Shown here in pieces: positions 5,413 through 28,317 of a stretch of DNA of 34,655 bases. Where the stretch lies: the IMG/VR virus record IMGVR_UViG_2548876936_000010; one strand, 5' to 3'. Position 1 is the stretch's first letter. Each line of letters begins with the position of its first letter. The position numbers and the translations under genes are program-made. A model generated the notes under the pieces. It saw nothing but the letters and a program-made list of their open reading frames with translations. It did no database searches and was not told the DNA's origin. The stretch comes from a virus (lineage: Duplodnaviria; Heunggongvirae; Uroviricota; Caudoviricetes).

Positions 5413-6603
5413 TTAATTGCTGTTAACCGAAGTGACCAGATTTGCCAGGTATTTATCGGTAATACGCTGGCGCAGGGTCAGGTTTTCGAGAGGAGGCACC
5501 GGTGTATAGTCGTAGTCGATATACAGTTTTCCGGCCTTGAGGGTTTCCGCATCGTTGGATTCTTCGCTGAACCAGCAGGTCGCATCCACGATATAGCCGT
5601 TTGTTTTCAGCTCACGGAATTTGGCATTAATGCCGTCAACGATGTCGCGAATCAGCGTTGCGGTGATGGGCTTATCCACAGCCCACATGTGCGCCTCAGC
5701 CATCGTGTCGGCCAGCACCTGCGCGGTGCGGGTGTAGTTTTCAAAGAGGAACAGCGGGTCATCAGAGCAGGTACGGTTACCCCAGAAGCGGAAACCGTCA
5801 CGGCGAATCAGCGTTGTGACGCCTGACTCGTTAAGCAGGTCAGCATCGGTGCCGGACTCCTGCAAATCCCAGAATACGGACGCGCTGATGCCGGTAACAC
5901 CGTTTACCCCGACGTTGGACAGCGTTTTATGCCAGCCCTGCTCCTGGTCGATTTTAGCGCGCAGACCCAGCGCACGGGCGGTGGCATACGCGGTGGCGGT
6001 GGTACTGGTGACCGTATCCCATGCGAGGAAATCCGGCCAGATGACCATCAGCTCACGCTGGCTGAAATTCTGGCGGTAGGCTTTCACCTCGGAAATGGTC
6101 TTACAGCCCCATGCGCTGATATATCCGAAAGCGCGCAGCTTCTGACAGACGGATGCCAGTGCAACAGCCACCTCTTTGGTATCCAGTCCCGGCACACCGA
6201 GAATACGCGGTTTAACACCGGTTACCGACTCCGCCGCCAGCAGGGCTTTTAGTCCGGTGTACTGACCGTTTTCGTCGGTGGTGCCGATGATATTGGAAAC
6301 GGTCTGCGCGAGTTTCGTTTCCTCGTCATCACCGGTGCCGTCTTCCACGCGCACGACAACGGTGACCGGTTTTGACTGGTCAGCGATGGCCTGCAACGAT
6401 GCCGCCAGCGTGCCTTTTTTACCGGCCTTTGCAATTGCGCTTTGCACATTGGTAATCAGCACCGGTTTATTGAGGGGGAAGGTTTCCGCATCCGCATCGC
6501 TGGCCGTGCAGACCATGCCGACAATGGCAGTGGATACGGTGGAAATGACGCGGGTGCCGTCGTTAATCTCCAGCACCTGCACGCCATGATGATAGTCACT
6601 CAT
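5413..6603 (-). CDS. FI: Contractile tail sheath protein gpFI (396 aa)
   Basis: 396-aa ORF, ATG at 6603, first gene of the FI-FII-E-T-U-D block. Confidence 0.9.
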   Translation of the reverse strand: MSDYHHGVQVLEINDGTRVISTVSTAIVGMVCTASDADAETFPLNKPVLITNVQSAIAKAGKKGTLAASLQAIADQSKPVTVVVRVEDGTGDDEETKLAQTVSNIIGTTDENGQYTGLKALLAAESVTGVKPRILGVPGLDTKEVAVALASVCQKLRAFGYISAWGCKTISEVKAYRQNFSQRELMVIWPDFLAWDTVTSTTATAYATARALGLRAKIDQEQGWHKTLSNVGVNGVTGISASVFWDLQESGTDADLLNESGVTTLIRRDGFRFWGNRTCSDDPLFLFENYTRTAQVLADTMAEAHMWAVDKPITATLIRDIVDGINAKFRELKTNGYIVDATCWFSEESNDAETLKAGKLYIDYDYTPVPPLENLTLRQRITDKYLANLVTSVNSN

Positions 6604-6698
6604 CCGTTTAACTCCGTGGTTAATGGGTGCAACTATTTTCTGTTGTGCAGAGCATAAGACGCTATTTGACCTGGCTGGTCAGTGGATGAAACAACAGA

Positions 6699-6727
6699 TA
6701 AAGAAAAGGCGGGCAATTCGCCCGCCT
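6699..6727 (-). terminator. Candidate intrinsic terminator (8-bp GC stem aggcgggc/gcccgcct, 5-nt loop, T-rich tail on - strand)
   Basis: Inverted repeat 6707..6714 / 6720..6727; - strand continues tttctttatc; lies between the cargo island and the FI start. Confidence 0.45.
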
Positions 6728-6786
6728 GTCCTGATTTGTACTCACTCATTTTCCGCCTGACAATTTACATAGCCCAAATGCTATCA

Positions 6787-6802
6787 AATCTGACAGTCTG
6801 CT
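6787..6802. repeat. Left copy of 16-bp perfect inverted repeat aatctgacagtctgct bracketing the FI-G cargo island
   Basis: Exact reverse complement of 9220..9235; a related direct copy at 9092..9116. Confidence 0.8.
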
Positions 6803-6933
6803 TTGAGCGAAAAGTGGACATTAGAGTTACAAAAGCAAGTTTAAATCATCCAAAATATTACAATGTCCTTATCTATCTGATATCGTTATGATAAAAAGCT
6901 CCTGAATATAATCGATAGTAGGTGGTTATTTCC

Positions 6934-7311
6934 ATGAAATCAATTTTAGAGGTTTTTACTCAAGGAAATACTAAAGAAAAACTGGCTGTTATCGCCGATC
7001 TCACAACCATTGCGGGAATATCGATTGCAACTATTATTGCTGGTTTGTTAACCCTAGTTGCAAAAACAGATAAACTAGATGTTGGAAATCTGTTTGGAGT
7101 TGTCATAATATCTCTGCTCGGATTGGCTGGTGTTTGCTGTTTTGTGGCCTTATTTATTTGGGTTATAACCCAAATGTCTAAACCATGGGGAACACCTCGG
7201 GGGGTTCAGCCCTTAGTTAAGTGTGCTATTTCCCTTATCTTTATCTGTATGTTTTTGCTGGCTGTCTTTACATTTTATGAGTTTATTTCTTCGATGAGCA
7301 TACGCTATTGA
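6934..7311 (+). CDS. Small hydrophobic membrane protein (125 aa, about 3-4 predicted TM helices), function unknown
   Basis: ATG at 6934 preceded by aggtgg; long hydrophobic stretches (IAGISIATIIAGLLTLVA, VVIISLLGLAGVCCFVALFIWVI, ISLIFICMFLLAVFTF); AT-rich relative to flanking phage genes. Confidence 0.6.
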   Translation: MKSILEVFTQGNTKEKLAVIADLTTIAGISIATIIAGLLTLVAKTDKLDVGNLFGVVIISLLGLAGVCCFVALFIWVITQMSKPWGTPRGVQPLVKCAISLIFICMFLLAVFTFYEFISSMSIRY

Positions 7312-7333
7312 ATATAAAATCAGCCCCCATAAC

Positions 7334-7918
7334 TTAAAAGAGACCTTCTATATCGACTTCAATGCCCAAATAACGGACTGTGCTTTCCAGTTTCTTATGG
7401 CCCAACAGAAGTTGGATCACCCGGAGACTCTTGGTTTTCTTGTAGATTAAGTAAGGTTTTGTTCTTCTCATGGAATGTGTGCTGTACAGCGAATCTTCGA
7501 GACCAAGCTTTTCTACCCACCCATGAAAAATTCGGTTGTATTGCCGGGTTGATATATGGTGGTTAGTTCCGACCCGAGAGCGGAACAGGAAGCCTTTACT
7601 ATGCCAGTTACCGAGCTTTATCAATGCAGTAACCGCTTCCCTTGTCCCTTTGGTTATCTCAAATTGGACAGGGCTGCCGGTTTTCTGTTGCAACACCGTT
7701 GCTCTGCTTGAGACAGAACTGCCATATGCAGCATCTGATACTTTGAGTTTGACCAAATCACAGCCCCGTAGCTTAGTGTCCAAAGCCATGTTGAACAGAG
7801 CTAGATCGCGTGTTTTACCTTCCAACTCAAGTCTAATCCGGATCCCCCAGATATGAGATATCTGAAGTGGCCTTTTTTGACCGATGGTACGGTCTTTATT
7901 CCACGGTGACGTTTTCAT
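7334..7918 (-). CDS. Small stand-alone tyrosine recombinase (about 194 aa, catalytic domain only)
   Basis: ATG at 7918 preceded by AGGAGA; candidate catalytic residues present: R in KLRGCDL, K in QQKTGSPV, HSMRRT (HxxR), LLGHKKLESTVRYLG (H and Y); no N-terminal arm/core-binding domain. Confidence 0.7.
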   Translation of the reverse strand: MKTSPWNKDRTIGQKRPLQISHIWGIRIRLELEGKTRDLALFNMALDTKLRGCDLVKLKVSDAAYGSSVSSRATVLQQKTGSPVQFEITKGTREAVTALIKLGNWHSKGFLFRSRVGTNHHISTRQYNRIFHGWVEKLGLEDSLYSTHSMRRTKPYLIYKKTKSLRVIQLLLGHKKLESTVRYLGIEVDIEGLF

Positions 7919-8024
7919 ATTCAAATCTCCTGCAATGTGGGAGATTTGAGTATGGTTGTCTCTCAAGAGCGAAAATAAGTCAACTATTACTAGTTGTTGC
8001 GCATGTACGTATTCTGTCAATTAA

Positions 8025-8867
8025 TTATTGACAATCATCAATTCTGGAATGATCAAAATCATCATATCGAATTATAGTCTGGTTGACTGTATCTATTGTT
8101 GGTGTCATTTCTGTTATAATATCCTGATAACCTAAAGAGTTAAATACATTTACTAAGGCCTCACACCGAAGGGCCGTAGCAATTACAAAATTATAAATTG
8201 CCAGCCGTTTATTTTCTTGTTTAACTGCAAGAATGAATTCGATAGCAGTATTTTCATCACTTTGGATTGCATTATATAGAGATACTATATTTACCATATC
8301 ATCAGAGAATGTATGTATTGAATCACAAAGGGGAACGTAATGGGCATGATAGTGTGTTTCCCAGCCAATTAATTCAAAAAGTTTTCTGGTTCCTGGATAT
8401 TCAGGTGTATTTGGCCACAATCTATTAAATAGATCAGTTAGTTCTTTTCCCATGCGAATCCTTTCATTTGCTGCTGGATTAGTCATTCCTTTGGATTTTA
8501 AACACTCCAGCCACCGTTTTCCATTACTATGAACTAATTTCTTACTAGCCTTGAGTAATGCTTGTGCATTTTCGCCATCATCTATTGCTATATAAAATTG
8601 ATTGGCAGCCTGTTCTATTATAACCCTAGCTAATACTTCCGATGCTGAAAAGGCTCCTATATTCAAAGAAGAGATAGCCTGATTACTAAGTTCATTCAGT
8701 ACATTAAAGTACTGTAAGACCATCAATTTTTGTTCCACACCCTTTAGGTTGTCTATTTTATTTTTATGCTCCTCAAATTTTGCATGGATATATTTATTTA
8801 TCGCGGCTATTTTTTTTACATCTTCGTCAAGATCAAACGGGCAACGTCCAAACAATTCTTTTTTCAT
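8025..8867 (-). CDS. Hypothetical protein (280 aa), AT-rich cargo gene, function unknown
   Basis: ATG at 8867 preceded by AGGAGA with 6-nt spacer; ends 4 nt upstream of the recombinase gene; no motif I can recognise. Confidence 0.65.
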   Translation of the reverse strand: MKKELFGRCPFDLDEDVKKIAAINKYIHAKFEEHKNKIDNLKGVEQKLMVLQYFNVLNELSNQAISSLNIGAFSASEVLARVIIEQAANQFYIAIDDGENAQALLKASKKLVHSNGKRWLECLKSKGMTNPAANERIRMGKELTDLFNRLWPNTPEYPGTRKLFELIGWETHYHAHYVPLCDSIHTFSDDMVNIVSLYNAIQSDENTAIEFILAVKQENKRLAIYNFVIATALRCEALVNVFNSLGYQDIITEMTPTIDTVNQTIIRYDDFDHSRIDDCQ

Positions 8868-8905
8868 ATATTTCTCCTGTTGTACAAGCTTCCATAAGTT
8901 GGCAG

Positions 8906-8911
8906 ATTATA
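8906..8911 (-). promoter_or_regulatory. Candidate -10 hexamer TATAAT about 38 nt upstream of the 280-aa gene start
   Basis: - strand reads TATAAT at 8911..8906; no good -35 found, so weakly supported. Confidence 0.25.
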
Positions 8912-9091
8912 CACTGAAGATTACCTATAAATAGCTGTGCGGGATAGCAGATCAGTGCAAGAAGTACAACCAAGTGAATGTGCGTATTCAGATACCTGGC
9001 CTAACGTTCGCGATAGCCGTCCCCTGCACGAAGCCATATATTAGATGTATTAGCTCAGACCTTATCTGACAGGTTGAGTAGGTAGAATCTA

Positions 9092-9116
9092 ATCAAAGCT
9101 GACAGTCTGGTTTGGA
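9092..9116. repeat. Direct-orientation degenerate copy (atcaaaGctgacagtctgGtttgG) of the left repeat
   Basis: About 22 of 25 positions match 6783..6807; a further partial copy atctgacag at 9064..9072. Confidence 0.6.
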
Positions 9117-9211
9117 CTGTGAGTTCAACCGATGGATGCAACACACAGCGATCTACGGACATTACTAGCATAGCTGTGTATTAATCATCGGGAAGCAGGT
9201 CAGTCCGCTCC

Positions 9212-9253
9212 TAGCACAGAGCAGACTGTCAGATTAGGCTTTACTCTGTGCTA
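9212..9253. repeat. 10-bp perfect inverted repeat (tagcacagag / ctctgtgcta) enclosing the right 16-bp repeat copy (9220..9235)
   Basis: Arms at 9212..9221 and 9244..9253; 9220..9235 agcagactgtcagatt is the exact reverse complement of 6787..6802. Confidence 0.75.
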
Positions 9254-9287
9254 TAGATACGTTAGCTCACTCCAGAGATCATACAAC

Positions 9288-9815
9288 TTATTGCGGCATT
9301 TCCGGCCATTCAGGATTTGCAGGATCCACACGGCTGACCAGAACACTGTAGCGTTCCCATGCTTCCAGTCGGCTACGCTCCTCATCTGTTGCCATATTCA
9401 GTCTGACAGAGCGTTCCAGTGGCTGAATGATAGTTTCAGCTTCGGAACGCAAAGCTGACTTCTGTAATTCCGCCAGTTGCAGCTGTTCGTCTGCCGTATA
9501 AATCCGCTTAATCACGGCACCATCCTTAAACATCCATTTACCTGAGTCATCAGCACGTCGGTTGGCGGTAATATCAGGAACCTCGACAACGCTAAAACCT
9601 TCAGGGTTGAGCGTTGAAGCATCTCTGGTGATGCCGACAATTATATTATTCTCATCGTAAACAATCTTTATCGTGTCTTCCTGAAAATTACTTACTTCCT
9701 CATACCAGTTTTTTCCCTCTTCGGACCATAACCAGATAACATCAAAATTTTTTGTCAGTTGATATTGGGCAACAGTTTTTGGATTACCCGCAGTAATATT
9801 TTTTAAATGCTGCAT
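9288..9815 (-). CDS. G: Tail fibre assembly protein gpG (175 aa)
   Basis: 175-aa ORF immediately downstream of H; ATG at 9815; length as P2 G. Confidence 0.8.
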
Positions 9816-13586: not shown

Positions 13587-14218
13587 AAAGGACTCCCGGT
13601 TGTGCCGCCGCTGTCGCCGGGGTGTTTATGGGTATGCAGTACCTTACCGTTTGATGAGAGTTCACCGCCGGTGTGTTCAATGTTGCCGCGCATCGTCCCG
13701 CCCTTCTGCACTTCCAGCGTGCCGGTAGTCAGTTTGTTAGTGCAGACCACTTCTGGTGTGTCCAGGGTTACACGGGTTGACGCTTTCACCGTGACCACCG
13801 GTACCGTGGCAGTAACAGAATCAGAAGCCGTCACGCTGGCCGTTTTAATTCCGCTTACCGTGAGTGCACTGGTTTCGGGTTCATACTCAATCACCGCCCC
13901 GTCAGGGAAACGGATATGCCGGGCATCAGCCGACGCAGACGGCGCAGGGTTATCGCCGGAATAAATCCCCGGCAGAACGAACGCCGTGTCGAGTTCACCG
14001 CCCACGGCCAGAATCAGCACCTGTTCCCCCACGGAAGGTGCCCACCATGTGCGCGAACGTCCTGCGCGATGGGTCAGCCACTGAAGCCAGTCGGTGCACA
14101 TGCCGCCGGTCTGCACGCGGCAGCGACCGGCGTTAAGGTCGGTTTCGACGATAATGCCGGTGCGAATCATGTTGCGCAGTGCGCGCGCGAGTTCCTGAAT
14201 ATTTGCGAGAGTGTTCAT
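13583..14218 (-). CDS. V: Baseplate spike protein gpV (211 aa from ATG at 14218)
   Basis: ORF 13583..14236; internal ATG gives MNTLANIQELARALRNMIRTG...; Gly-rich C-terminus. Confidence 0.8.
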   Translation of the reverse strand: MNTLANIQELARALRNMIRTGIIVETDLNAGRCRVQTGGMCTDWLQWLTHRAGRSRTWWAPSVGEQVLILAVGGELDTAFVLPGIYSGDNPAPSASADARHIRFPDGAVIEYEPETSALTVSGIKTASVTASDSVTATVPVVTVKASTRVTLDTPEVVCTNKLTTGTLEVQKGGTMRGNIEHTGGELSSNGKVLHTHKHPGDSGGTTGSPL

Positions 14219-14301
14219 GCATGTGAGATTGCACAATATATAAAAGTTATGCTATCTGGATTCATTTGTAGAACTACCAGACAACATTCAAGGAGAGCGT
14301 A

Positions 14302-15087
14302 ATGGTCAGCTATAATGTGACTAATGTGTGGGGGCTAATCGTTTTTTTCCTTTGTAGCTTTGCAGTATTAGCATTTTTTAGCTTTGGTAAAAGTAACCTT
14401 ATGAGGCTTATTGCACATTATTTCAATTTTGGATATTCAGACAAAAAATTAAAAAGACTTGACCGCGAGTGGCGCGACATTCAACTATTTAAAATAATTA
14501 ACGGAATCAATGTATCAGGCATTGAAAATGTGAGAATGATACAGCAGGGACTGATTGATGGAAAACTAAAAACATCGTATTTTTTCCTTACTCGCATCTG
14601 GGGTGACATAACAAAACCACCACACATAATTAAAACAATAATTGTAATTCTGGCTAGTATTTTTTACATTCTTCTCGCATGTTACATACACAACGAACAA
14701 TCCGTTATAGTAAGGGATGCCATAGGCATACCATATAAAAACATGATGTACTATGTTTATAGTGACAAAGTTCTTTTATCCTTCAAAAATAAAGCAGTTG
14801 AATTTAATAAAACTTATAGCCTTGCCGATTGCAAGAGACTGCAAAACGTATTTATAAAAGACACACTTCCTGAGATCGCCTGCAATAAGCTCTTACAGCT
14901 AAACGAGGAGGACTCCGAATGGTTAAGTCAGGAGATTAAAGATAATAACAGTCACAAAAAAGCATTATTAATACTATCCCTCGTCTATTTCACTTCAGGT
15001 CTGGTTATATTCCTGTCATATACAAAATTCTTTTACGCCAATAAGAAGGTTTTAGAATACAAAGCATCAAATAAAAATCACTCATAA
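14302..15087 (+). CDS. AT-rich membrane protein (261 aa, three predicted TM helices), opposite strand to flanking late genes; moron
   Basis: ATG at 14302 with AGGAGA 5 nt upstream; TM segments VWGLIVFFLCSFAVLAFFSF, IIKTIIVILASIFYILLACYI, ALLILSLVYFTSGLVIFLSYT; marked AT-richness. Confidence 0.65.
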   Translation: MVSYNVTNVWGLIVFFLCSFAVLAFFSFGKSNLMRLIAHYFNFGYSDKKLKRLDREWRDIQLFKIINGINVSGIENVRMIQQGLIDGKLKTSYFFLTRIWGDITKPPHIIKTIIVILASIFYILLACYIHNEQSVIVRDAIGIPYKNMMYYVYSDKVLLSFKNKAVEFNKTYSLADCKRLQNVFIKDTLPEIACNKLLQLNEEDSEWLSQEIKDNNSHKKALLILSLVYFTSGLVIFLSYTKFFYANKKVLEYKASNKNHS

Positions 15088-15093
15088 ACCTCT

Positions 15094-15128
15094 AAACATT
15101 GAGCGCCCAGCATGGCCGCTCAATGTTT
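15094..15128. terminator. 12-bp perfect hairpin (aaacattgagcg / cgctcaatgttt, 11-nt loop) between the convergent moron and gene S; candidate bidirectional terminator
   Basis: Arms 15094..15105 and 15117..15128, directly after the moron stop (15085..15087) and after the S stop on the other strand. Confidence 0.45.
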
Positions 15129-15158
15129 AATTGCGCATCAGCCTCTGCCTGGATAAAA

Positions 15159-15611
15159 CTAACGCTCAAGGTGAGCCAGGATAATCTCTTCAATCATCTG
15201 CACATCCTCACAGGTAAAGCCGAGCAGAGGACGCGCCGGATAATCAATTTTCTTACCGTCTTTCCGGGTTTCTTCCGACAGACCGAACTGATGCACACTG
15301 GCGATTTTCGGCGACTTCCCGCCGTAAAATTCCATTGATGCCTGTTCCGGGCTGGCGCGGATATGCAAAAAACGACTGGTGATAAGTTTCGCAAACATTT
15401 TTCGCTTAACACGACCGGTCTTTTTTCTGGCGCGCTGCTGCTGGCGTGGCGCGTAGGGTGTACCGTCCAGGGCTTTCTGTGCCATCACCCGGCGCTGCTG
15501 ACTCTGCCGCAGACGTTTCGCCAGTTCGGTGCTCAGTCGCCGACGCCCTGACGGTGACAGTGATTCAATCAGTCCGGTCAGACGGTCTTCAAAACGCTTA
15601 AACTCATTCAT
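15159..15611 (-). CDS. S: Tail completion protein gpS (150 aa)
   Basis: 150-aa ORF; overlaps R; length as P2 S. Confidence 0.8.
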   Translation of the reverse strand: MNEFKRFEDRLTGLIESLSPSGRRRLSTELAKRLRQSQQRRVMAQKALDGTPYAPRQQQRARKKTGRVKRKMFAKLITSRFLHIRASPEQASMEFYGGKSPKIASVHQFGLSEETRKDGKKIDYPARPLLGFTCEDVQMIEEIILAHLER

Positions 15612-24366: not shown

Positions 24367-25074
24367 CTATATATACTTCCTTTTTACTCTACTTAATTCT
24401 ATCACTGATGAGGAGTGACAAAATGACAAATTAATAGTATCGATATAATCCAAAATTTGACTCTCAACCTCAATAAAAATATTTTTGGGCCCATTACTAA
24501 TCGATATACCGATTTCATCCAAAACAGCCATCATTTTTCTCTGATGAGTTTTATATTTATAGTCTTTATTTTCCTCTGTAATATGTGCATTGGCTTCCTC
24601 AATAACACATTTGATTCTAGATATTATTTCTAGATAATCTCTCGAAACAGATATATCACCGCCTTGCGCTTCAGGGAACATAACCCTATACCATCTAAAA
24701 AAATTAACTTTCTCTGGATAGATGCTACTTCTTTTAGTTAACTCAGCACTTGCAAATTCTCTAAACATCGTCAGATGACTAGTGTAATTACTATTATTAT
24801 TATTTTTAACTCCAGCGTTATATGTCATCAAAGCAATCATAACACCAAAAACGGTAACAAAAGTTGTTATAAGCCATCCAAACGCCTGAAAATACATTAC
24901 TATACCAGATGTTTTTTCCGCAAAAAATTTTAAGCACTGGCTATCGAAGCATATATCACGCTCATATAGCTTTTCATTCTGAATAGTTTCAAAAAGAGAA
25001 ATTAGCGAAAAAATCAAAAAAAGAGCTGACGACACACCGACAATATATTTGAGAAGTCTAATATTTGCATTCAT
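24367..25074 (-). CDS. Two-TM membrane protein (235 aa) translationally coupled to the RT; candidate effector
   Basis: ATG at 25074 overlaps the RT stop (ATGA, 25071..25074); TM1 YIVGVSSALFLIFSLISLF, TM2 GIVMYFQAFGWLITTFVTVFGVMIALM, then about 150-aa soluble domain; AT-rich. Confidence 0.7.
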   Translation of the reverse strand: MNANIRLLKYIVGVSSALFLIFSLISLFETIQNEKLYERDICFDSQCLKFFAEKTSGIVMYFQAFGWLITTFVTVFGVMIALMTYNAGVKNNNNSNYTSHLTMFREFASAELTKRSSIYPEKVNFFRWYRVMFPEAQGGDISVSRDYLEIISRIKCVIEEANAHITEENKDYKYKTHQRKMMAVLDEIGISISNGPKNIFIEVESQILDYIDTINLSFCHSSSVIELSRVKRKYI

Positions 25075-26261
25075 AATGGTTTTAAAGATGCCAATCTAGA
25101 TTTAAAACACTCCAGTTTTTCTTTAAATGATTCAGAGCGAGTAAGAATAATCATCTTATATCTCGTCAAATCATATTTTCTTTTATACCAATGTTTATTT
25201 TGATTACCTTTCGAATACGACAACTCTAAACTTTTTATAGCTGCATCAATCACAGCAACATCTCTTTTAGATGGCATCGGTTTTATTGCCTGCAACTGTT
25301 TCTTGAATGATTCATATTTTTCATGCCCAACACGGCCAAGCTTATTCACTCTCCCCATACATCTATTGAATTCTTTTCTGTATGCAACACTTGTTTTTGT
25401 GTTATTTTTTGCCGCCAGTAATTTCAAATTATGTATAGATGCCCTGATTCTTTTGACTTCATCGGATGGTAGTCGAGGTGAGTCATAGTCAACTCTTAAA
25501 CCATGTACTTTTATAGGTTCAGATGAACAGTGAAATATTTTAGTTTTGTGCTTATTTATCGGCAAGTCATGCTCAGAAAGCATCCTCTCTATATGGCTTT
25601 GCATTTGAGAAAAATCATAATTACTTATTTTAGATGACACGGTAATATCATCTACCAAACGCGTATAAACAAGTCCTTTCCTCTGCGCACGTCTTACCAC
25701 ATCCCCTTCAACAGCGAATAAACACAAAGTTGCTATATAGCTTGATGTTAAGGCCCCCTGTACGACAAAATCATCCTTAGTACATATATCCACCAAGTAT
25801 TCAAGAGCCTCATCCTTAATATGCAATATCTCCTCAAACACGCTCCTAACCAGATCTCTATGGATATTATCGAAAAAATTACTTATATCCACCTTGAGAA
25901 CTGTTTTTGCTCCACAATGAGCCTTTGCACATGAAACATAGTCACGTTTGACATTAGAATTTAAAACATCATTTTTACTGGGAACTGAACCAAACAAAAA
26001 TGAAGGAAAAACAACCAATTCCTTAAAGATACGTTTATTAATTCTACTCTGTAATAATCTCATTTTAGGATGCAGGGAGTAGACAATCCGTTTGCTTCCG
26101 TCAATTTTGGGAATTTCTTTTAGAGTATATTTCTCATCTAATGATAATTCTGCAATAGCTTTAAGCTCTTCAACAGAAATCGATAAAGCCTTTGACAACT
26201 TTTCAAGTGTTGTGATAGGAGCATTGGATTTGCTGTATGGTTTAAATTTATCCATAAACAT
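25071..26261 (-). CDS. Reverse transcriptase, retron-like (about 397 aa; start ambiguous among ATGs at 26297, 26261, 26255)
   Basis: RT motifs in the translation: IPKIDGSKRIV, LLQSRINKRI, CAKAH...LKVDISNFFDNI, QGALTSSYIATLCL, YTRLVDDITV (YxDD-type), LPINKHKTKI, IKVHGLRV; basic C-terminal extension. Confidence 0.8.
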   Translation of the reverse strand: MFMDKFKPYSKSNAPITTLEKLSKALSISVEELKAIAELSLDEKYTLKEIPKIDGSKRIVYSLHPKMRLLQSRINKRIFKELVVFPSFLFGSVPSKNDVLNSNVKRDYVSCAKAHCGAKTVLKVDISNFFDNIHRDLVRSVFEEILHIKDEALEYLVDICTKDDFVVQGALTSSYIATLCLFAVEGDVVRRAQRKGLVYTRLVDDITVSSKISNYDFSQMQSHIERMLSEHDLPINKHKTKIFHCSSEPIKVHGLRVDYDSPRLPSDEVKRIRASIHNLKLLAAKNNTKTSVAYRKEFNRCMGRVNKLGRVGHEKYESFKKQLQAIKPMPSKRDVAVIDAAIKSLELSYSKGNQNKHWYKRKYDLTRYKMIILTRSESFKEKLECFKSRLASLKPL

Positions 26262-26512
26262 ACCATTCAAATTCAAAGTTACGTACGGTCTTCCCATACT
26301 CAAGGGTGGAACAGCAGAGATGCTTACATCAACAATTGTCAGCAACAGCCTCTGCTATCTTTCGACCGTACGTAATGTCGTCGGCTACGGCACCATCGTA
26401 GTTGACGACGGTGGGGCCTCGCTGATAGGTCCATAGTGGACGCTTTTTTGTAAAAGCAAAAACTGACAATTTAATGTTGTTGACTGCCGCATACCAAGCG
26501 AATCGCTGGTGC
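26262..26512 (-). ncRNA. Candidate structured non-coding leader of the RT (possible retron msr/msd-like RNA)
   Basis: 12-bp perfect inverted repeat ttacgtacggtc (26279..26290) / gaccgtacgtaa (26364..26375) with nested 7-bp repeat agcagag/ctctgct; adjacent hairpin 26377..26409; no ORF. Confidence 0.4.
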
Positions 26513-27312: not shown

Positions 27313-28317
27313 ATGTCAAAAGAAAACACACCAATGGAACCAAGCATAAATATAAAGGCAGACTTCACTGAGATATTAAATTCATCGCCAAAGGGCGTTA
27401 AGTATATATTCAATATTCTCTTCGGAAAAAAACACGCAGAGGCCGAGAGAAGGATTAGGCTATCGAACGCTCAAGATTATGCAGATATGAAAAAGATCAT
27501 ATCTGGAGAAGCAACATATGATAATGAGAGGAACCAAATAACACCTTCTAACCAAGACATTAAGTCATTAATTGTTAGTGCATTGCAGGATGAGGAAATT
27601 AAAAATCTTATAGGCTGCATCAGAAGCGCCTCAGAATACATTAAAGATGATACTGATAACGATGGTGGTCCATCCCAAGACTTTATTAACAGATGGCGAA
27701 GCGATGCGAAACTAATCAGTGAACAGTCTATCCAGTACGTTTGGGGGCGAATTCTAGCGGAAGAAATAAACACACCTCAAACTGTAAGCGTAAGAACCCT
27801 TGATGTAATAAAAAACCTATCAAAAGAAGAGGCTGAATATTTCTCAGAGGTACTTGACTTTATATTTTACGATTCTTATTTGATTGATAATGGAGATACC
27901 AAGAATCCATTCATCTCACCAGAAAAAGGTCATAAATTGAGAGATGCAGGATTAATAGTTACTTTTACTCCTGGAATGTATTTCTCCGAGACATGGGATA
28001 CACAACATTTTGTTCTCAGTGGAGCCACCATACCAAAAGTATTCTACATCAGCAGTTCTGATAAGTATTACTTTATCGATGCAGGCAAAATAACTGACGA
28101 CCCTAAAATTCTGGTATGGAAGTTAACAAATGCTGGCAAAGAACTATATAAAATTCTAAAGAAAGATCATAAAACCAAAGAAGAATCAGTAAAAAAAATT
28201 ATTGACTGGATATTAAACAGCACTAAAGCTTCTGAGTTTTACCATGGGGATATTATTAAACATTCAGACAATAGCCTGTCAGTTGAGAACTTACTGACTA
28301 TAAGCAGAAATAGATAG
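27313..28317 (+). CDS. Hypothetical protein (334 aa), AT-rich cargo at the position P2 uses for tin/old
   Basis: ATG at 27313 with ggag upstream; no Walker A or other motif I can recognise; convergent with A; followed by a hairpin. Confidence 0.65.
   Translation: MSKENTPMEPSINIKADFTEILNSSPKGVKYIFNILFGKKHAEAERRIRLSNAQDYADMKKIISGEATYDNERNQITPSNQDIKSLIVSALQDEEIKNLIGCIRSASEYIKDDTDNDGGPSQDFINRWRSDAKLISEQSIQYVWGRILAEEINTPQTVSVRTLDVIKNLSKEEAEYFSEVLDFIFYDSYLIDNGDTKNPFISPEKGHKLRDAGLIVTFTPGMYFSETWDTQHFVLSGATIPKVFYISSSDKYYFIDAGKITDDPKILVWKLTNAGKELYKILKKDHKTKEESVKKIIDWILNSTKASEFYHGDIIKHSDNSLSVENLLTISRNR

What the first reader, a model, noticed from the sequence alone, without database searches (positions are those of the whole stretch)
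8025..8867. 280-aa unknown protein co-transcribed with the recombinase
Strong RBS, AT-rich codon usage, and no recognisable nucleotide-binding or nuclease motif by eye. It is the largest cargo ORF at a locus known for phage-exclusion genes and the first gene of a two-gene unit ending in a recombinase. Function is unassigned.
Basis: inference. Interest (0 to 1): 0.5.

Follow-up and report, generated by a model that had tools for sequence, protein, structure and literature searches.

The report
Uncharacterised DUF5677 cargo gene in prophage
The 280-codon ORF is a real, conserved gene for a helical protein of unknown function (Pfam DUF5677), carried as optional cargo in a known anti-phage hotspot of a P2-like E. 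coli prophage; it is a reasonable but untested candidate for a new single-gene phage-defence protein.

Summary
The ORF is confirmed at 8025-8867 on the minus strand: 280 aa, AGGAG ribosome-binding site, 34% GC. It lies in the Z/fun accessory hotspot of a P2-like prophage, between tail-fibre assembly gene G and sheath gene FI.

The gene arrived in a 1.85-kb AT-rich module with a small tyrosine recombinase. The link is loose:
- the real spacer is 106 nt;
- the recombinase is 3'-truncated here and a pseudogene in a lambdoid copy where DUF5677 stays intact (dN/dS 0.2-0.36);
- each gene occurs widely without the other.

In other E. coli genomes the same recombinase sits directly beside validated single-gene defences (PD-T7-1, HEC-08). 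Nine of 13 DUF5677 contexts sampled are mobile elements or defence islands.

Best reading is a stand-alone defence or exclusion protein, with confidence about 0.5. One distant homologue gave no protection in E. faecalis.

The parts
8025..8867 (-). CDS of the 280-aa DUF5677-family protein (32 kDa, pI 5.7, soluble, all-alpha)
   Evidence: ORF. PF18928 at 40.1 bits against a cut-off of 27.1. phrog_4167 full length, E=2e-202. dN/dS 0.20-0.36. AlphaFold pLDDT 95.3.
8874..8878 (-). Shine-Dalgarno sequence AGGAG, 6 nt upstream of the ATG
   Evidence: Read from the sequence.
8906..8911 (-). Perfect TATAAT -10 hexamer, candidate own promoter. No good -35, and the consensus scan did not call it.
   Evidence: The hexamer is conserved in the lambdoid copy.
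8868..9203 (-). Non-coding leader of the module. It is about 88% identical down to 9151 in the lambdoid-prophage copy.
7353..9203 (-). The 1.85-kb AT-rich module (leader + DUF5677 + hairpin + truncated recombinase). It is present here and absent from otherwise collinear P2-like prophages.
   Evidence: Comparison with locus L035, a P2-like prophage whose Z/fun cargo is the membrane gene only. Homology breaks at 7352/7353 and resumes at 9204.
7916..7954 (.). 15-9-15 palindrome or RNA hairpin covering the recombinase SD (GGAG) and ATG
   Evidence: RNA fold z = -2.85. Conserved in 15 recombinase loci, with one compensatory pair change in L020.
7334..7918 (-). Small tyrosine recombinase, 194 aa. 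The catalytic R / HxxR / H / Y residues are present. The last 12 codons and the terminator are replaced at the insertion junction.
   Evidence: PF00589 E=1.5e-17. RefSeq start. C-terminus ...GIEVD|IEGLF* here against ...GIEVD|DALEISESIEV* elsewhere.
6934..7311 (+). Separate Z/fun cargo gene for a 125-aa protein with three hydrophobic segments that I read as transmembrane helices (phrog_4155). Its terminator hairpin, truncated at 7336-7352, forms the junction with the module.
   Evidence: The gene occurs alone in other P2-like prophages (L035).
6787..6819 (.). Hotspot inverted repeat on the FI side
   Evidence: pair I1. It corresponds to the 'right inverted repeat' annotated in P2-EC58/EC67 Z-region records.
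9203..9235 (.). Hotspot inverted repeat on the G side
   Evidence: pair I1. P2 backbone homology resumes here.
9066..9123 (.). Third, partial copy of the hotspot repeat inside the module leader, also present in the lambdoid copy
   Evidence: (D1, I2).
5413..6603 (-). P2 tail sheath gene FI, which bounds the hotspot
   Evidence: Pfam Phage_sheath_1, Phage_sheath_1C and Gp18_domIII_N.
9288..9815 (-). P2 tail fibre assembly gene G, which bounds the hotspot
   Evidence: Pfam Caudo_TAP, E=1.8e-33.

Best explanation
The ORF encodes a soluble, all-helical, 32-kDa protein of the uncharacterised DUF5677 family. It is optional (moron) cargo of the Z/fun hotspot of a P2-like prophage, with its own leader and probable promoter. 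It got there inside a 1.85-kb AT-rich module that also holds a small tyrosine recombinase. The recombinase is a vehicle or passenger, not a functional partner.

Most likely function (inferred): a stand-alone anti-phage, inter-element exclusion protein made in the lysogen.

Most likely mode of action (inferred): it works in the cytoplasm through a conserved polar site. That site is formed by R81-E85-N89, which lie on one face of helix 3, together with Y173/H185 on helix 7 and D190/N193 on helix 8. The site would be enzymatic or ligand-binding, and it would either block a superinfecting phage or shut the cell down.

Shown here: the gene is real, it belongs to the family, it is under purifying selection, the module is mobile, it is independent of the recombinase, and it keeps MGE/defence company.

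Inferred only: the defence role and the active site.
For: Location:
- The gene sits between G and FI, the Z/fun locus recognised as a P2 defence hotspot (PMC13586616).
- The same prophage carries a type IV retron in its Q-A hotspot.

Optional cargo:
- The whole cargo is present in 36 of 5,426 complete E. coli genomes, while P2 flanks are present in about 1,630.
- It is absent from 50,697 phage records.

Selection and mobility:
- dN/dS is 0.20-0.36 across four contexts.
- The module is 86-89% identical in lambdoid prophages, where the recombinase has decayed but DUF5677 is intact.

Family:
- It is small and specific: 80 cluster representatives out of 1.84 billion proteins.
- R81 is invariant, and E85, N89, W119, P158, F164, Y173, H185, D190 and N193 are at least 94% conserved.

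Guilt by association:
- The identical position, directly 5' of the same recombinase, is occupied by PD-T7-1 and HEC-08 in other E. coli. Both are experimentally validated defences.
- Restriction-endonuclease-annotated genes occupy that position or flank the recombinase in two further strains.

Other DUF5677 contexts:
- Lamassu-like Cap4 nuclease + SMC.
- Dcm + PF20553 + HATPase_c_3 clusters in Leptospira and in a lambda-P context.
- HATPase_c_3 + Mrr_N/methylase + Endonuclease_NS next to an integrase.
- AAA_15/AAA_21 systems.
- A PLD nuclease.
- DUF5677 is statistically enriched beside serine recombinases that mark defence loci in Bacillota.
Against: - No experiment supports it. The one DUF5677 ORF tested, from a Bacillota species and expressed in E. 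faecalis against six phages, was not among the five ORFs that protected.
- There is no hit to any of 5,027 PADLOC models even at E<=1.
- No catalytic fold was identified. Foldseek gave a best E of 0.11 against PDB and 0.09 against BFVD.
- Four of the 13 contexts are ordinary chromosomal neighbourhoods or uninformative: L007, P0016, P0013, P0025.
- Hotspot cargo can also be anti-defence, virulence or maintenance genes.
Confidence: 0.5

Rival explanations
1. The protein is a counter-defence or other lysogenic-conversion factor. For example it could inhibit a host or rival-element immune system, or modulate host physiology. It would be carried as hotspot cargo but would not itself block phages.
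For: P2 hotspots also carry non-defence cargo such as partition systems and toxins. An all-helical acidic protein (pI 5.7) with no enzymatic fold match would fit a binding or inhibitor protein. A DUF5677 homologue gave no protection when tested.
Against: At 280 aa with about ten near-invariant polar or aromatic residues across very distant members, it looks more like an active site than like the small, fast-evolving inhibitors typical of anti-defence proteins. Solitary chromosomal copies exist in Pseudomonas-sized genomes. Its co-location is with defence genes rather than with early phage genes.
Confidence: 0.17
2. The protein is a selfish stabilising or toxic element, that is, an addiction-type gene that keeps the module or prophage in the cell, with no phage-specific role.
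For: It has an AT-rich mobile module, is a single gene with its own promoter, and is retained while the neighbouring recombinase decays. In one lineage an overlapping 82-aa ORF lies upstream, and in another a 237-aa ORF lies immediately downstream. Either could be a partner.
Against: No partner is conserved across contexts. The gene persists as a lone gene in many settings. There is no homology to toxin families.
Confidence: 0.1
3. The protein is an accessory factor of the adjacent tyrosine recombinase. It would be a directionality, regulatory or target-selection protein, so that the two genes form a functional recombination unit as the first reader's 'two-gene unit' suggests.
For: The genes share a strand, lie 106 nt apart and have no terminator between them. 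The pair is co-inherited in three contexts: the P2 hotspot, lambdoid prophages and Buttiauxella. DUF5677 is also enriched next to serine recombinases in Bacillota.
Against: The recombinase is found without DUF5677 in about 790 E. coli genomes, with other genes in that position. DUF5677 is found without any adjacent recombinase in 10 of 13 contexts. DUF5677 stays intact and under purifying selection where the recombinase is a pseudogene. The recombinase here is 3'-truncated.
Confidence: 0.04
4. The protein is a housekeeping or structural phage protein of the P2 tail region.
For: Its position lies between tail genes G and FI.
Against: It is absent from P2, Wphi, L-413C and all other phage records. 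It is present in only 36 of about 1,630 P2-flank-bearing E. coli genomes. Collinear prophages lack it. Its GC content is foreign. Homologues occur in non-phage contexts.
Confidence: 0.01

Closest known systems
P2 Z/fun locus cargo (the fun(Z) T5-exclusion gene of phage P2 and the variable 'Z-region' ORFs of P2-EC58 and P2-EC67)
   Same: It occupies the same slot between G and FI and is flanked by the same inverted repeats. It is AT-rich, carries its own expression signals, and differs between otherwise collinear prophages.
   Different: The cargo sequence is unrelated; only the flanks match (10-11% query cover). This cargo is composite, made of the membrane-protein gene plus the DUF5677-recombinase module.
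PD-T7-1 and HEC-08, validated single-gene E. coli defences
   Same: They occupy the same position immediately 5' of the same small tyrosine recombinase unit (88-91% nt identity), in lambdoid prophages and genomic islands. They are single genes of about 366-449 aa.
   Different: There is no sequence relationship (hhalign probability 0.2%). HEC-08 depends on a HEPN Rx4-6H motif, which DUF5677 lacks.
HEPN-domain abortive-infection and toxin proteins (AbiV, AbiU2, AbiD/F, DUF3644, MNT-HEPN toxins)
Rst_DUF4238, the single-DUF defence from the P2 Q-A hotspot
   Same: It is a P2-hotspot-encoded single protein made of a domain of unknown function, and it protects against T7.
   Different: It lies in a different hotspot and belongs to a different family; no PADLOC hit was found. 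DUF5677 has no demonstrated activity.
Recombinase-marked defence loci (serine-recombinase 'RADS' loci) and integron-like platforms
   Same: A conserved recombinase gene lies next to highly variable defence cargo. DUF5677 is itself enriched in RADS loci.
   Different: Here the recombinase is a tyrosine recombinase of about 200 aa. No second recombination site or attC-like element was found within 3-6 kb in 15 loci. Mobilisation is unproven, and the junction in this window is illegitimate because it truncates the recombinase.

Membership tests
Pfam PF18928 (DUF5677) | Whole-protein HMM score above the curated gathering threshold | tested here: met
   40.1 bits against a cut-off of 27.1, E=5e-10, residues 50-194. 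66 of the 67 aligned sequences match at E<=0.01 and all 67 at E<=10.
Pfam PF18928 (DUF5677) | Family-wide conserved motifs R-x3-E-x3-N (helix 3) and S-D-S-x-H-x3-[ED]-D-x2-N (helices 7/8) | tested here: met
   R81, E85, N89, H185, D190 and N193 are present. Conservation across 67 sequences at 15-87% identity is 94-100%. The window protein has C181 and D189 where the family majority has S and E.
PHROG phrog_4167 | Full-length profile match | tested here: met
   E=2.3e-202, residues 1-280 of 280. The family is annotated 'unknown function'.
HEPN superfamily | Conserved Rx4-6H catalytic motif | tested here: not met
   The invariant R81 is followed by E at +4 and N at +8, not by H. The only Rx5H (R267...H273) is confined to the close subfamily, and its R is not conserved family-wide.
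HEPN superfamily | Four-helix up-down bundle core superposable on solved HEPN domains | tested here: inconclusive
HEPN superfamily | Sequence-profile match to any HEPN family model | tested here: not met
   No HEPN family appears among the Pfam hits of 67 members at E<=10. There are no PADLOC Abi/HEPN hits at E<=1. hhalign against the HEC-08 DUF3644 HEPN domain gives probability 0.2%.
Known or candidate anti-phage defence systems (PADLOC-DB 2.0.0) | Match to a defence-protein model | tested here: not met
   0 families at E<=1 for DUF5677, the recombinase and the membrane protein. The database dates from 2023, so later systems are not covered.
P2 Z/fun hotspot cargo | Located between tail fibre assembly gene G and sheath gene FI, bounded by the hotspot inverted repeats, and variable among collinear prophages | tested here: met
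Anti-phage defence gene (functional class) | Reduces phage plating or burst when present | not testable with these tools
   Only association evidence is available. One distant homologue gave no protection in E. faecalis.
Operon with the recombinase | A single transcript spans both genes | not testable with these tools
   The genes share a strand, lie 106 nt apart, and have no terminator-like site on the minus strand between them. A promoter-like site lies at 8143-8116 inside the DUF5677 ORF. Transcript data are needed.
Tyrosine recombinase (the neighbouring gene) | Phage_integrase catalytic domain with R, HxxR, H/W and Y | tested here: met
   PF00589 E=1.5e-17. LRGCD, HSMRR, GHKK and RYLG are read from the translation. 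The C-terminal 12 residues after the Tyr region are replaced, so activity is uncertain.

The most novel reading that the evidence does not exclude
Two linked claims make up the most novel reading that the evidence does not exclude.

1. DUF5677 is a new single-gene anti-phage defence family with a helical fold that has no solved relative.
2. The ~0.7-kb small tyrosine-recombinase unit next to it is a dedicated shuttle or landing platform. The unit consists of a 45-nt leader with a 15-9-15 palindrome, a 603-nt gene and a terminator. It would move single-gene defences (PD-T7-1, HEC-08, restriction-like genes, DUF5677) between P2 and lambdoid prophage hotspots, plasmids, transposons and islands.

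Probability: 0.2. Interest if true: 0.7.

Novelty: new member of a known kind. Interest (0 to 1): 0.4.

Why it matters
If DUF5677 proteins are defence effectors, they add a family with no recognisable catalytic fold to the bacterial immune repertoire. They also give a function to a Pfam DUF. The family is rare: 80 cluster representatives among 1.84 billion proteins. In this sampling it was seen in E. coli, Buttiauxella, Leptospira and two ~6.8-Mb genomes.

The locus also offers a concrete, testable handle on how hotspot cargo is swapped. The same small recombinase unit sits beside different validated defences in 845 of 5,426 complete E. coli genomes, and here it sits inside a P2 tail-gene hotspot.

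If the gene has no phage phenotype, the finding is simply one more uncharacterised moron in a well-known variable locus.

Tried and rejected
Homology searches that found nothing informative:
- Sequence search against PDB with the single protein and with a 67-sequence profile gave only noise, E>=0.24.
- NCBIfam and PADLOC gave nothing.
- A Pfam scan of all 67 relatives at E<=10 found no second family recurring beyond DUF5677.
- Word-indexed protein searches returned only 11-13 relatives.
- The exhaustive profile search gave 80 representatives, all about 270-340 aa, with no informative domain fusions.
- hhalign of the family profile against PD-T7-1, HEC-08 and the plasmid 476-aa protein that occupy the same position gave probability 0.2%.

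Structure:
- The first AlphaFold model, from 9 sequences, was mediocre (pLDDT 70). The 67-sequence model was excellent.
- Foldseek against PDB and BFVD gave no hit with E<0.08.
- The AFDB libraries were not available.
- Model coordinates could not be read, so spatial clustering of the conserved residues was not checked.

Other searches:
- Rfam found no RNA family in 6400-9500.
- The genome-contig scan with the broad alignment failed for lack of a conserved stretch. The narrow alignment found only two loci.
- A search for a second copy of the recombinase palindrome, as a cassette boundary, found none within 3-6 kb in 15 loci. An integron- or lox-type cassette model is therefore unsupported.

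Literature:
- Three held papers mention 'DUF5677' and two were listed; neither assigns the domain a function.
- RefSeq protein accessions for the three cargo genes appear in no held paper.
- Nilsson et al. 2004, on Z-region recombination, is not held.

Rejected readings:
- The TTG-extended 228-aa recombinase ORF is rejected because its frame is broken in the lambdoid copy and RefSeq uses the ATG.
- A structural-gene reading is rejected on distribution.

Full report
**Observation**

The ORF exists exactly as described. It runs from ATG to TAA at 8025-8867 on the minus strand and encodes 280 aa. An AGGAG lies 6 nt before the start and a perfect TATAAT lies at 8911-8906.

The ORF is 34% GC (GC3 24.6%), next to a 56%-GC sheath gene. 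With that composition, the chance of 280 open codons is about 8e-11. Orthologues from three other genomic settings give dN/dS of 0.20-0.36. It is a real gene under purifying selection.

**Locus**

The window is a P2-like prophage of E. coli. The ORF lies between the tail-fibre assembly gene G (9288-9815) and the sheath gene FI (5413-6603). This is the Z/fun slot, which recent work lists among P2 defence hotspots (PMC13586616).

The P2 flanks, including inverted repeats at 6787-6819 and 9203-9235, match P2, Wphi, L-413C and the P2-EC58/EC67 'Z-region' records, which annotate left and right inverted repeats. The interior matches no phage record.

The whole cargo is at least 99.7% identical in 36 of 5,426 complete E. 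coli genomes, including S88, ATCC 11775 and APEC O1/O2 strains. RefSeq labels its three genes 'hypothetical protein', 'tyrosine-type recombinase/integrase' and 'DUF5677 domain-containing protein'.

The same prophage carries a type IV retron (RT_IV + 2TM_IV) in its Q-A hotspot.

**How the cargo is built**

Some P2-like prophages hold only the membrane-protein gene (6934-7311, plus strand) in this slot; one is Ec1119, locus L035. Compared with them, the window has a 1.85-kb insertion or replacement at 7353-9203.

One junction (7352/7353) lies in the loop of the membrane gene's terminator hairpin. It cuts off the last 12 codons and the terminator of the recombinase, so the protein ends ...GIEVD|IEGLF* instead of ...GIEVD|DALEISESIEV*. 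The other junction abuts the G-side hotspot repeat. A third partial copy of that repeat lies inside the module leader at 9066-9123.

The module from 9151 to 7352 recurs at 86-89% nt identity in lambdoid prophages of other E. coli. There it lies upstream of an AAA_15/AAA_21 gene pair, hok, rem, DUF968, rusA and Q. In those copies the recombinase has a 73-bp deletion, yet DUF5677 is intact.

A Buttiauxella genome has DUF5677 plus an intact recombinase next to a Tn3-family transposase and resolvase. Another bacterium has DUF5677 alone, after guaA and beside a PLD-type nuclease.

**Relation to the recombinase**

The recombinase starts at the ATG at 7918, as RefSeq annotates it. The TTG-extended frame is broken in the lambdoid copy. 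The spacer is therefore 106 nt.

The spacer holds a 15-9-15 palindrome (7916-7954) covering the recombinase SD and ATG. As RNA it folds better than shuffles, with z = -2.85. It shows one compensatory pair change in Buttiauxella.

No terminator separates the genes, so read-through transcription is plausible but unproven. A promoter-like site also lies inside the DUF5677 ORF at 8143-8116.

The recombinase segment 7972-7352 occurs on its own in 845 of 5,426 E. coli genomes at about 88-91% identity, whereas DUF5677 plus recombinase occurs in only 55. Conservation starts sharply about 45 nt upstream of the ATG and ends just after a GC hairpin terminator, and the DNA on both sides differs between loci.

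The gene directly upstream of that unit varies:
- PD-T7-1 in a lambdoid prophage (L015).
- HEC-08 (DUF3644 HEPN) in Nissle 1917 (L014); L029 carries the same protein accession, and L031 a 366-aa gene at the same coordinates that I did not scan.
- A 'restriction endonuclease' in L030, and another directly downstream of the unit in L033.
- A 476-aa unknown protein on a plasmid.

PD-T7-1 and HEC-08 are experimentally validated single-gene defences. No second copy of the palindrome was found within 3-6 kb in 15 loci. The recombinase is therefore a marker and possible vehicle of single-gene defence cargo, not a partner specific to DUF5677.

**The protein**

- It passes the Pfam DUF5677 threshold (40.1 bits against 27.1) and matches phrog_4167 end to end.
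- PADLOC, NCBIfam and PDB sequence searches are empty.
- The family is small, with 80 cluster representatives at E<1e-3 among 1.84 billion proteins. Nearly all are 270-340 aa with no fused domains.
- Across 67 sequences down to 15% identity, R81 is invariant. E85, N89, W119, P158, F164, Y173, H185, D190 and N193 are at least 94% conserved.
- With this alignment, AlphaFold gives a confident model (pLDDT 95.3, pTM 0.92) of ten helices. R81, E85 and N89 are spaced i, i+4, i+8 on helix 3, and the SDSxH...DD..N motif spans helices 7-8.
- Foldseek finds nothing in PDB or BFVD.
- There is no conserved Rx4-6H, and no HEPN profile matches. HEPN is a lead, not a classification.

**Contexts of relatives**

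I sampled thirteen independent contexts. Nine are prophages, integrase-bearing elements, transposon neighbourhoods or defence-type clusters:
- Lamassu-like Cap4 nuclease + SMC.
- Dcm + PF20553 + HATPase_c_3 (plus Vsr) in Leptospira, and again next to a lambda-P gene.
- HATPase_c_3 + Mrr_N/methylase + Endonuclease_NS.
- AAA_15/AAA_21 genes.

Four contexts are ordinary chromosomal neighbourhoods or uninformative. No partner gene is conserved.

A preprint reports DUF5677 as significantly enriched beside defence-marking serine recombinases in Bacillota. The DUF5677 ORF it tested was not among those that protected E. faecalis against six phages.

**Interpretation**

The best-supported reading is a stand-alone accessory protein expressed from the prophage, most likely acting in inter-phage exclusion or defence through the conserved polar site (confidence about 0.5).

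Rivals:
- Counter-defence or another conversion function (0.17).
- A selfish stabilising or toxic gene (0.10).
- A recombinase accessory factor (0.04, contradicted by distribution and by decay of the recombinase).
- A structural phage protein (0.01).

About 0.18 of the probability remains unassigned.

**Novelty**

The gene and its family are already in Pfam, PHROGs and RefSeq, and unknown cargo in a P2 hotspot is expected. On present evidence it is a new, uncharacterised member of the known kind 'prophage-hotspot accessory/defence candidates'.

The more interesting by-product is the small recombinase unit that accompanies different validated defences. [quoted passage not shown] That idea is not shown here, and in this window the recombinase is truncated by an illegitimate junction.

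Noticed in passing
window 7352-7972 (minus strand); loci L014-L017 and L027-L034: A ~0.7-kb unit occurs in 845 of 5,426 complete E. coli genomes in many contexts. It consists of a 45-nt leader with a palindrome, a 603-nt small tyrosine recombinase gene and a GC hairpin terminator. The gene directly upstream is the validated defence PD-T7-1 or HEC-08 in several strains, and restriction-endonuclease-like genes flank it in others.
   Followed up: partly
window 7916-7954: A 15-9-15 palindrome overlaps the recombinase Shine-Dalgarno sequence and start codon. It is conserved in 15 loci, with one compensatory change in Buttiauxella (L020). It could be a translational-repression hairpin, an operator or a lox-like core site. 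No second copy was found nearby.
   Followed up: partly
window 7336-7353: The junction of the DUF5677-recombinase module with the older cargo lies in the loop of the membrane gene's terminator hairpin. It replaces the recombinase's last 12 codons, giving a chimeric C-terminus (IEGLF*).
   Followed up: yes
window 6934-7311 (+): A 125-aa protein with three hydrophobic segments that I read as transmembrane helices (phrog_4155, unknown function) is an independent Z/fun cargo gene. It is present in 64 E. coli genomes and is the sole cargo in some P2-like prophages (L035). It could be a superinfection-exclusion candidate in its own right.
   Followed up: partly
window 9066-9123, 6787-6819 and 9203-9235: A third partial copy of the Z/fun hotspot inverted repeat (core CAGACTGTCAG) lies in the leader of the DUF5677 module. 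It is retained in the lambdoid-prophage copy. This hints that the module once sat in, or recombines through, P2 hotspot repeats.
   Followed up: partly
window 24367-26345 (minus strand) and 27313-28317 (+): The Q-A hotspot of the same prophage carries a type IV retron: RT_IV at 25071-26345 and its 2TM_IV effector at 24367-25074. An AT-rich DUF2806 gene lies at 27313-28317. A retron ncRNA was not looked for.
   Followed up: partly
window 13900-15400: A third AT-rich patch (GC about 0.40) contains ORFs at 13916-14302 and 14302-15087 with no Pfam or PADLOC match. It may be further accessory cargo.
   Followed up: partly
L018 2922-8861 and L022 4482-10546: DUF5677 lies within one or two genes of the same Dcm methylase + PF20553 + HATPase_c_3 cluster in Leptospira barantonii and in a lambda-P-adjacent metagenomic contig. 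This is a recurring linkage between two very different settings, a Leptospira genome and a contig with lambdoid-type genes.
   Followed up: no
L009 7882-9877 (and L010-L013): In lambdoid prophages the DUF5677 module sits about 1 kb upstream of a pair made of an AAA_15/AAA_21 ATPase (457 aa) and a 211-aa protein. By its layout I suspect a PARIS- or Gabija-like ATPase system; the pair was not scanned against PADLOC.
   Followed up: no
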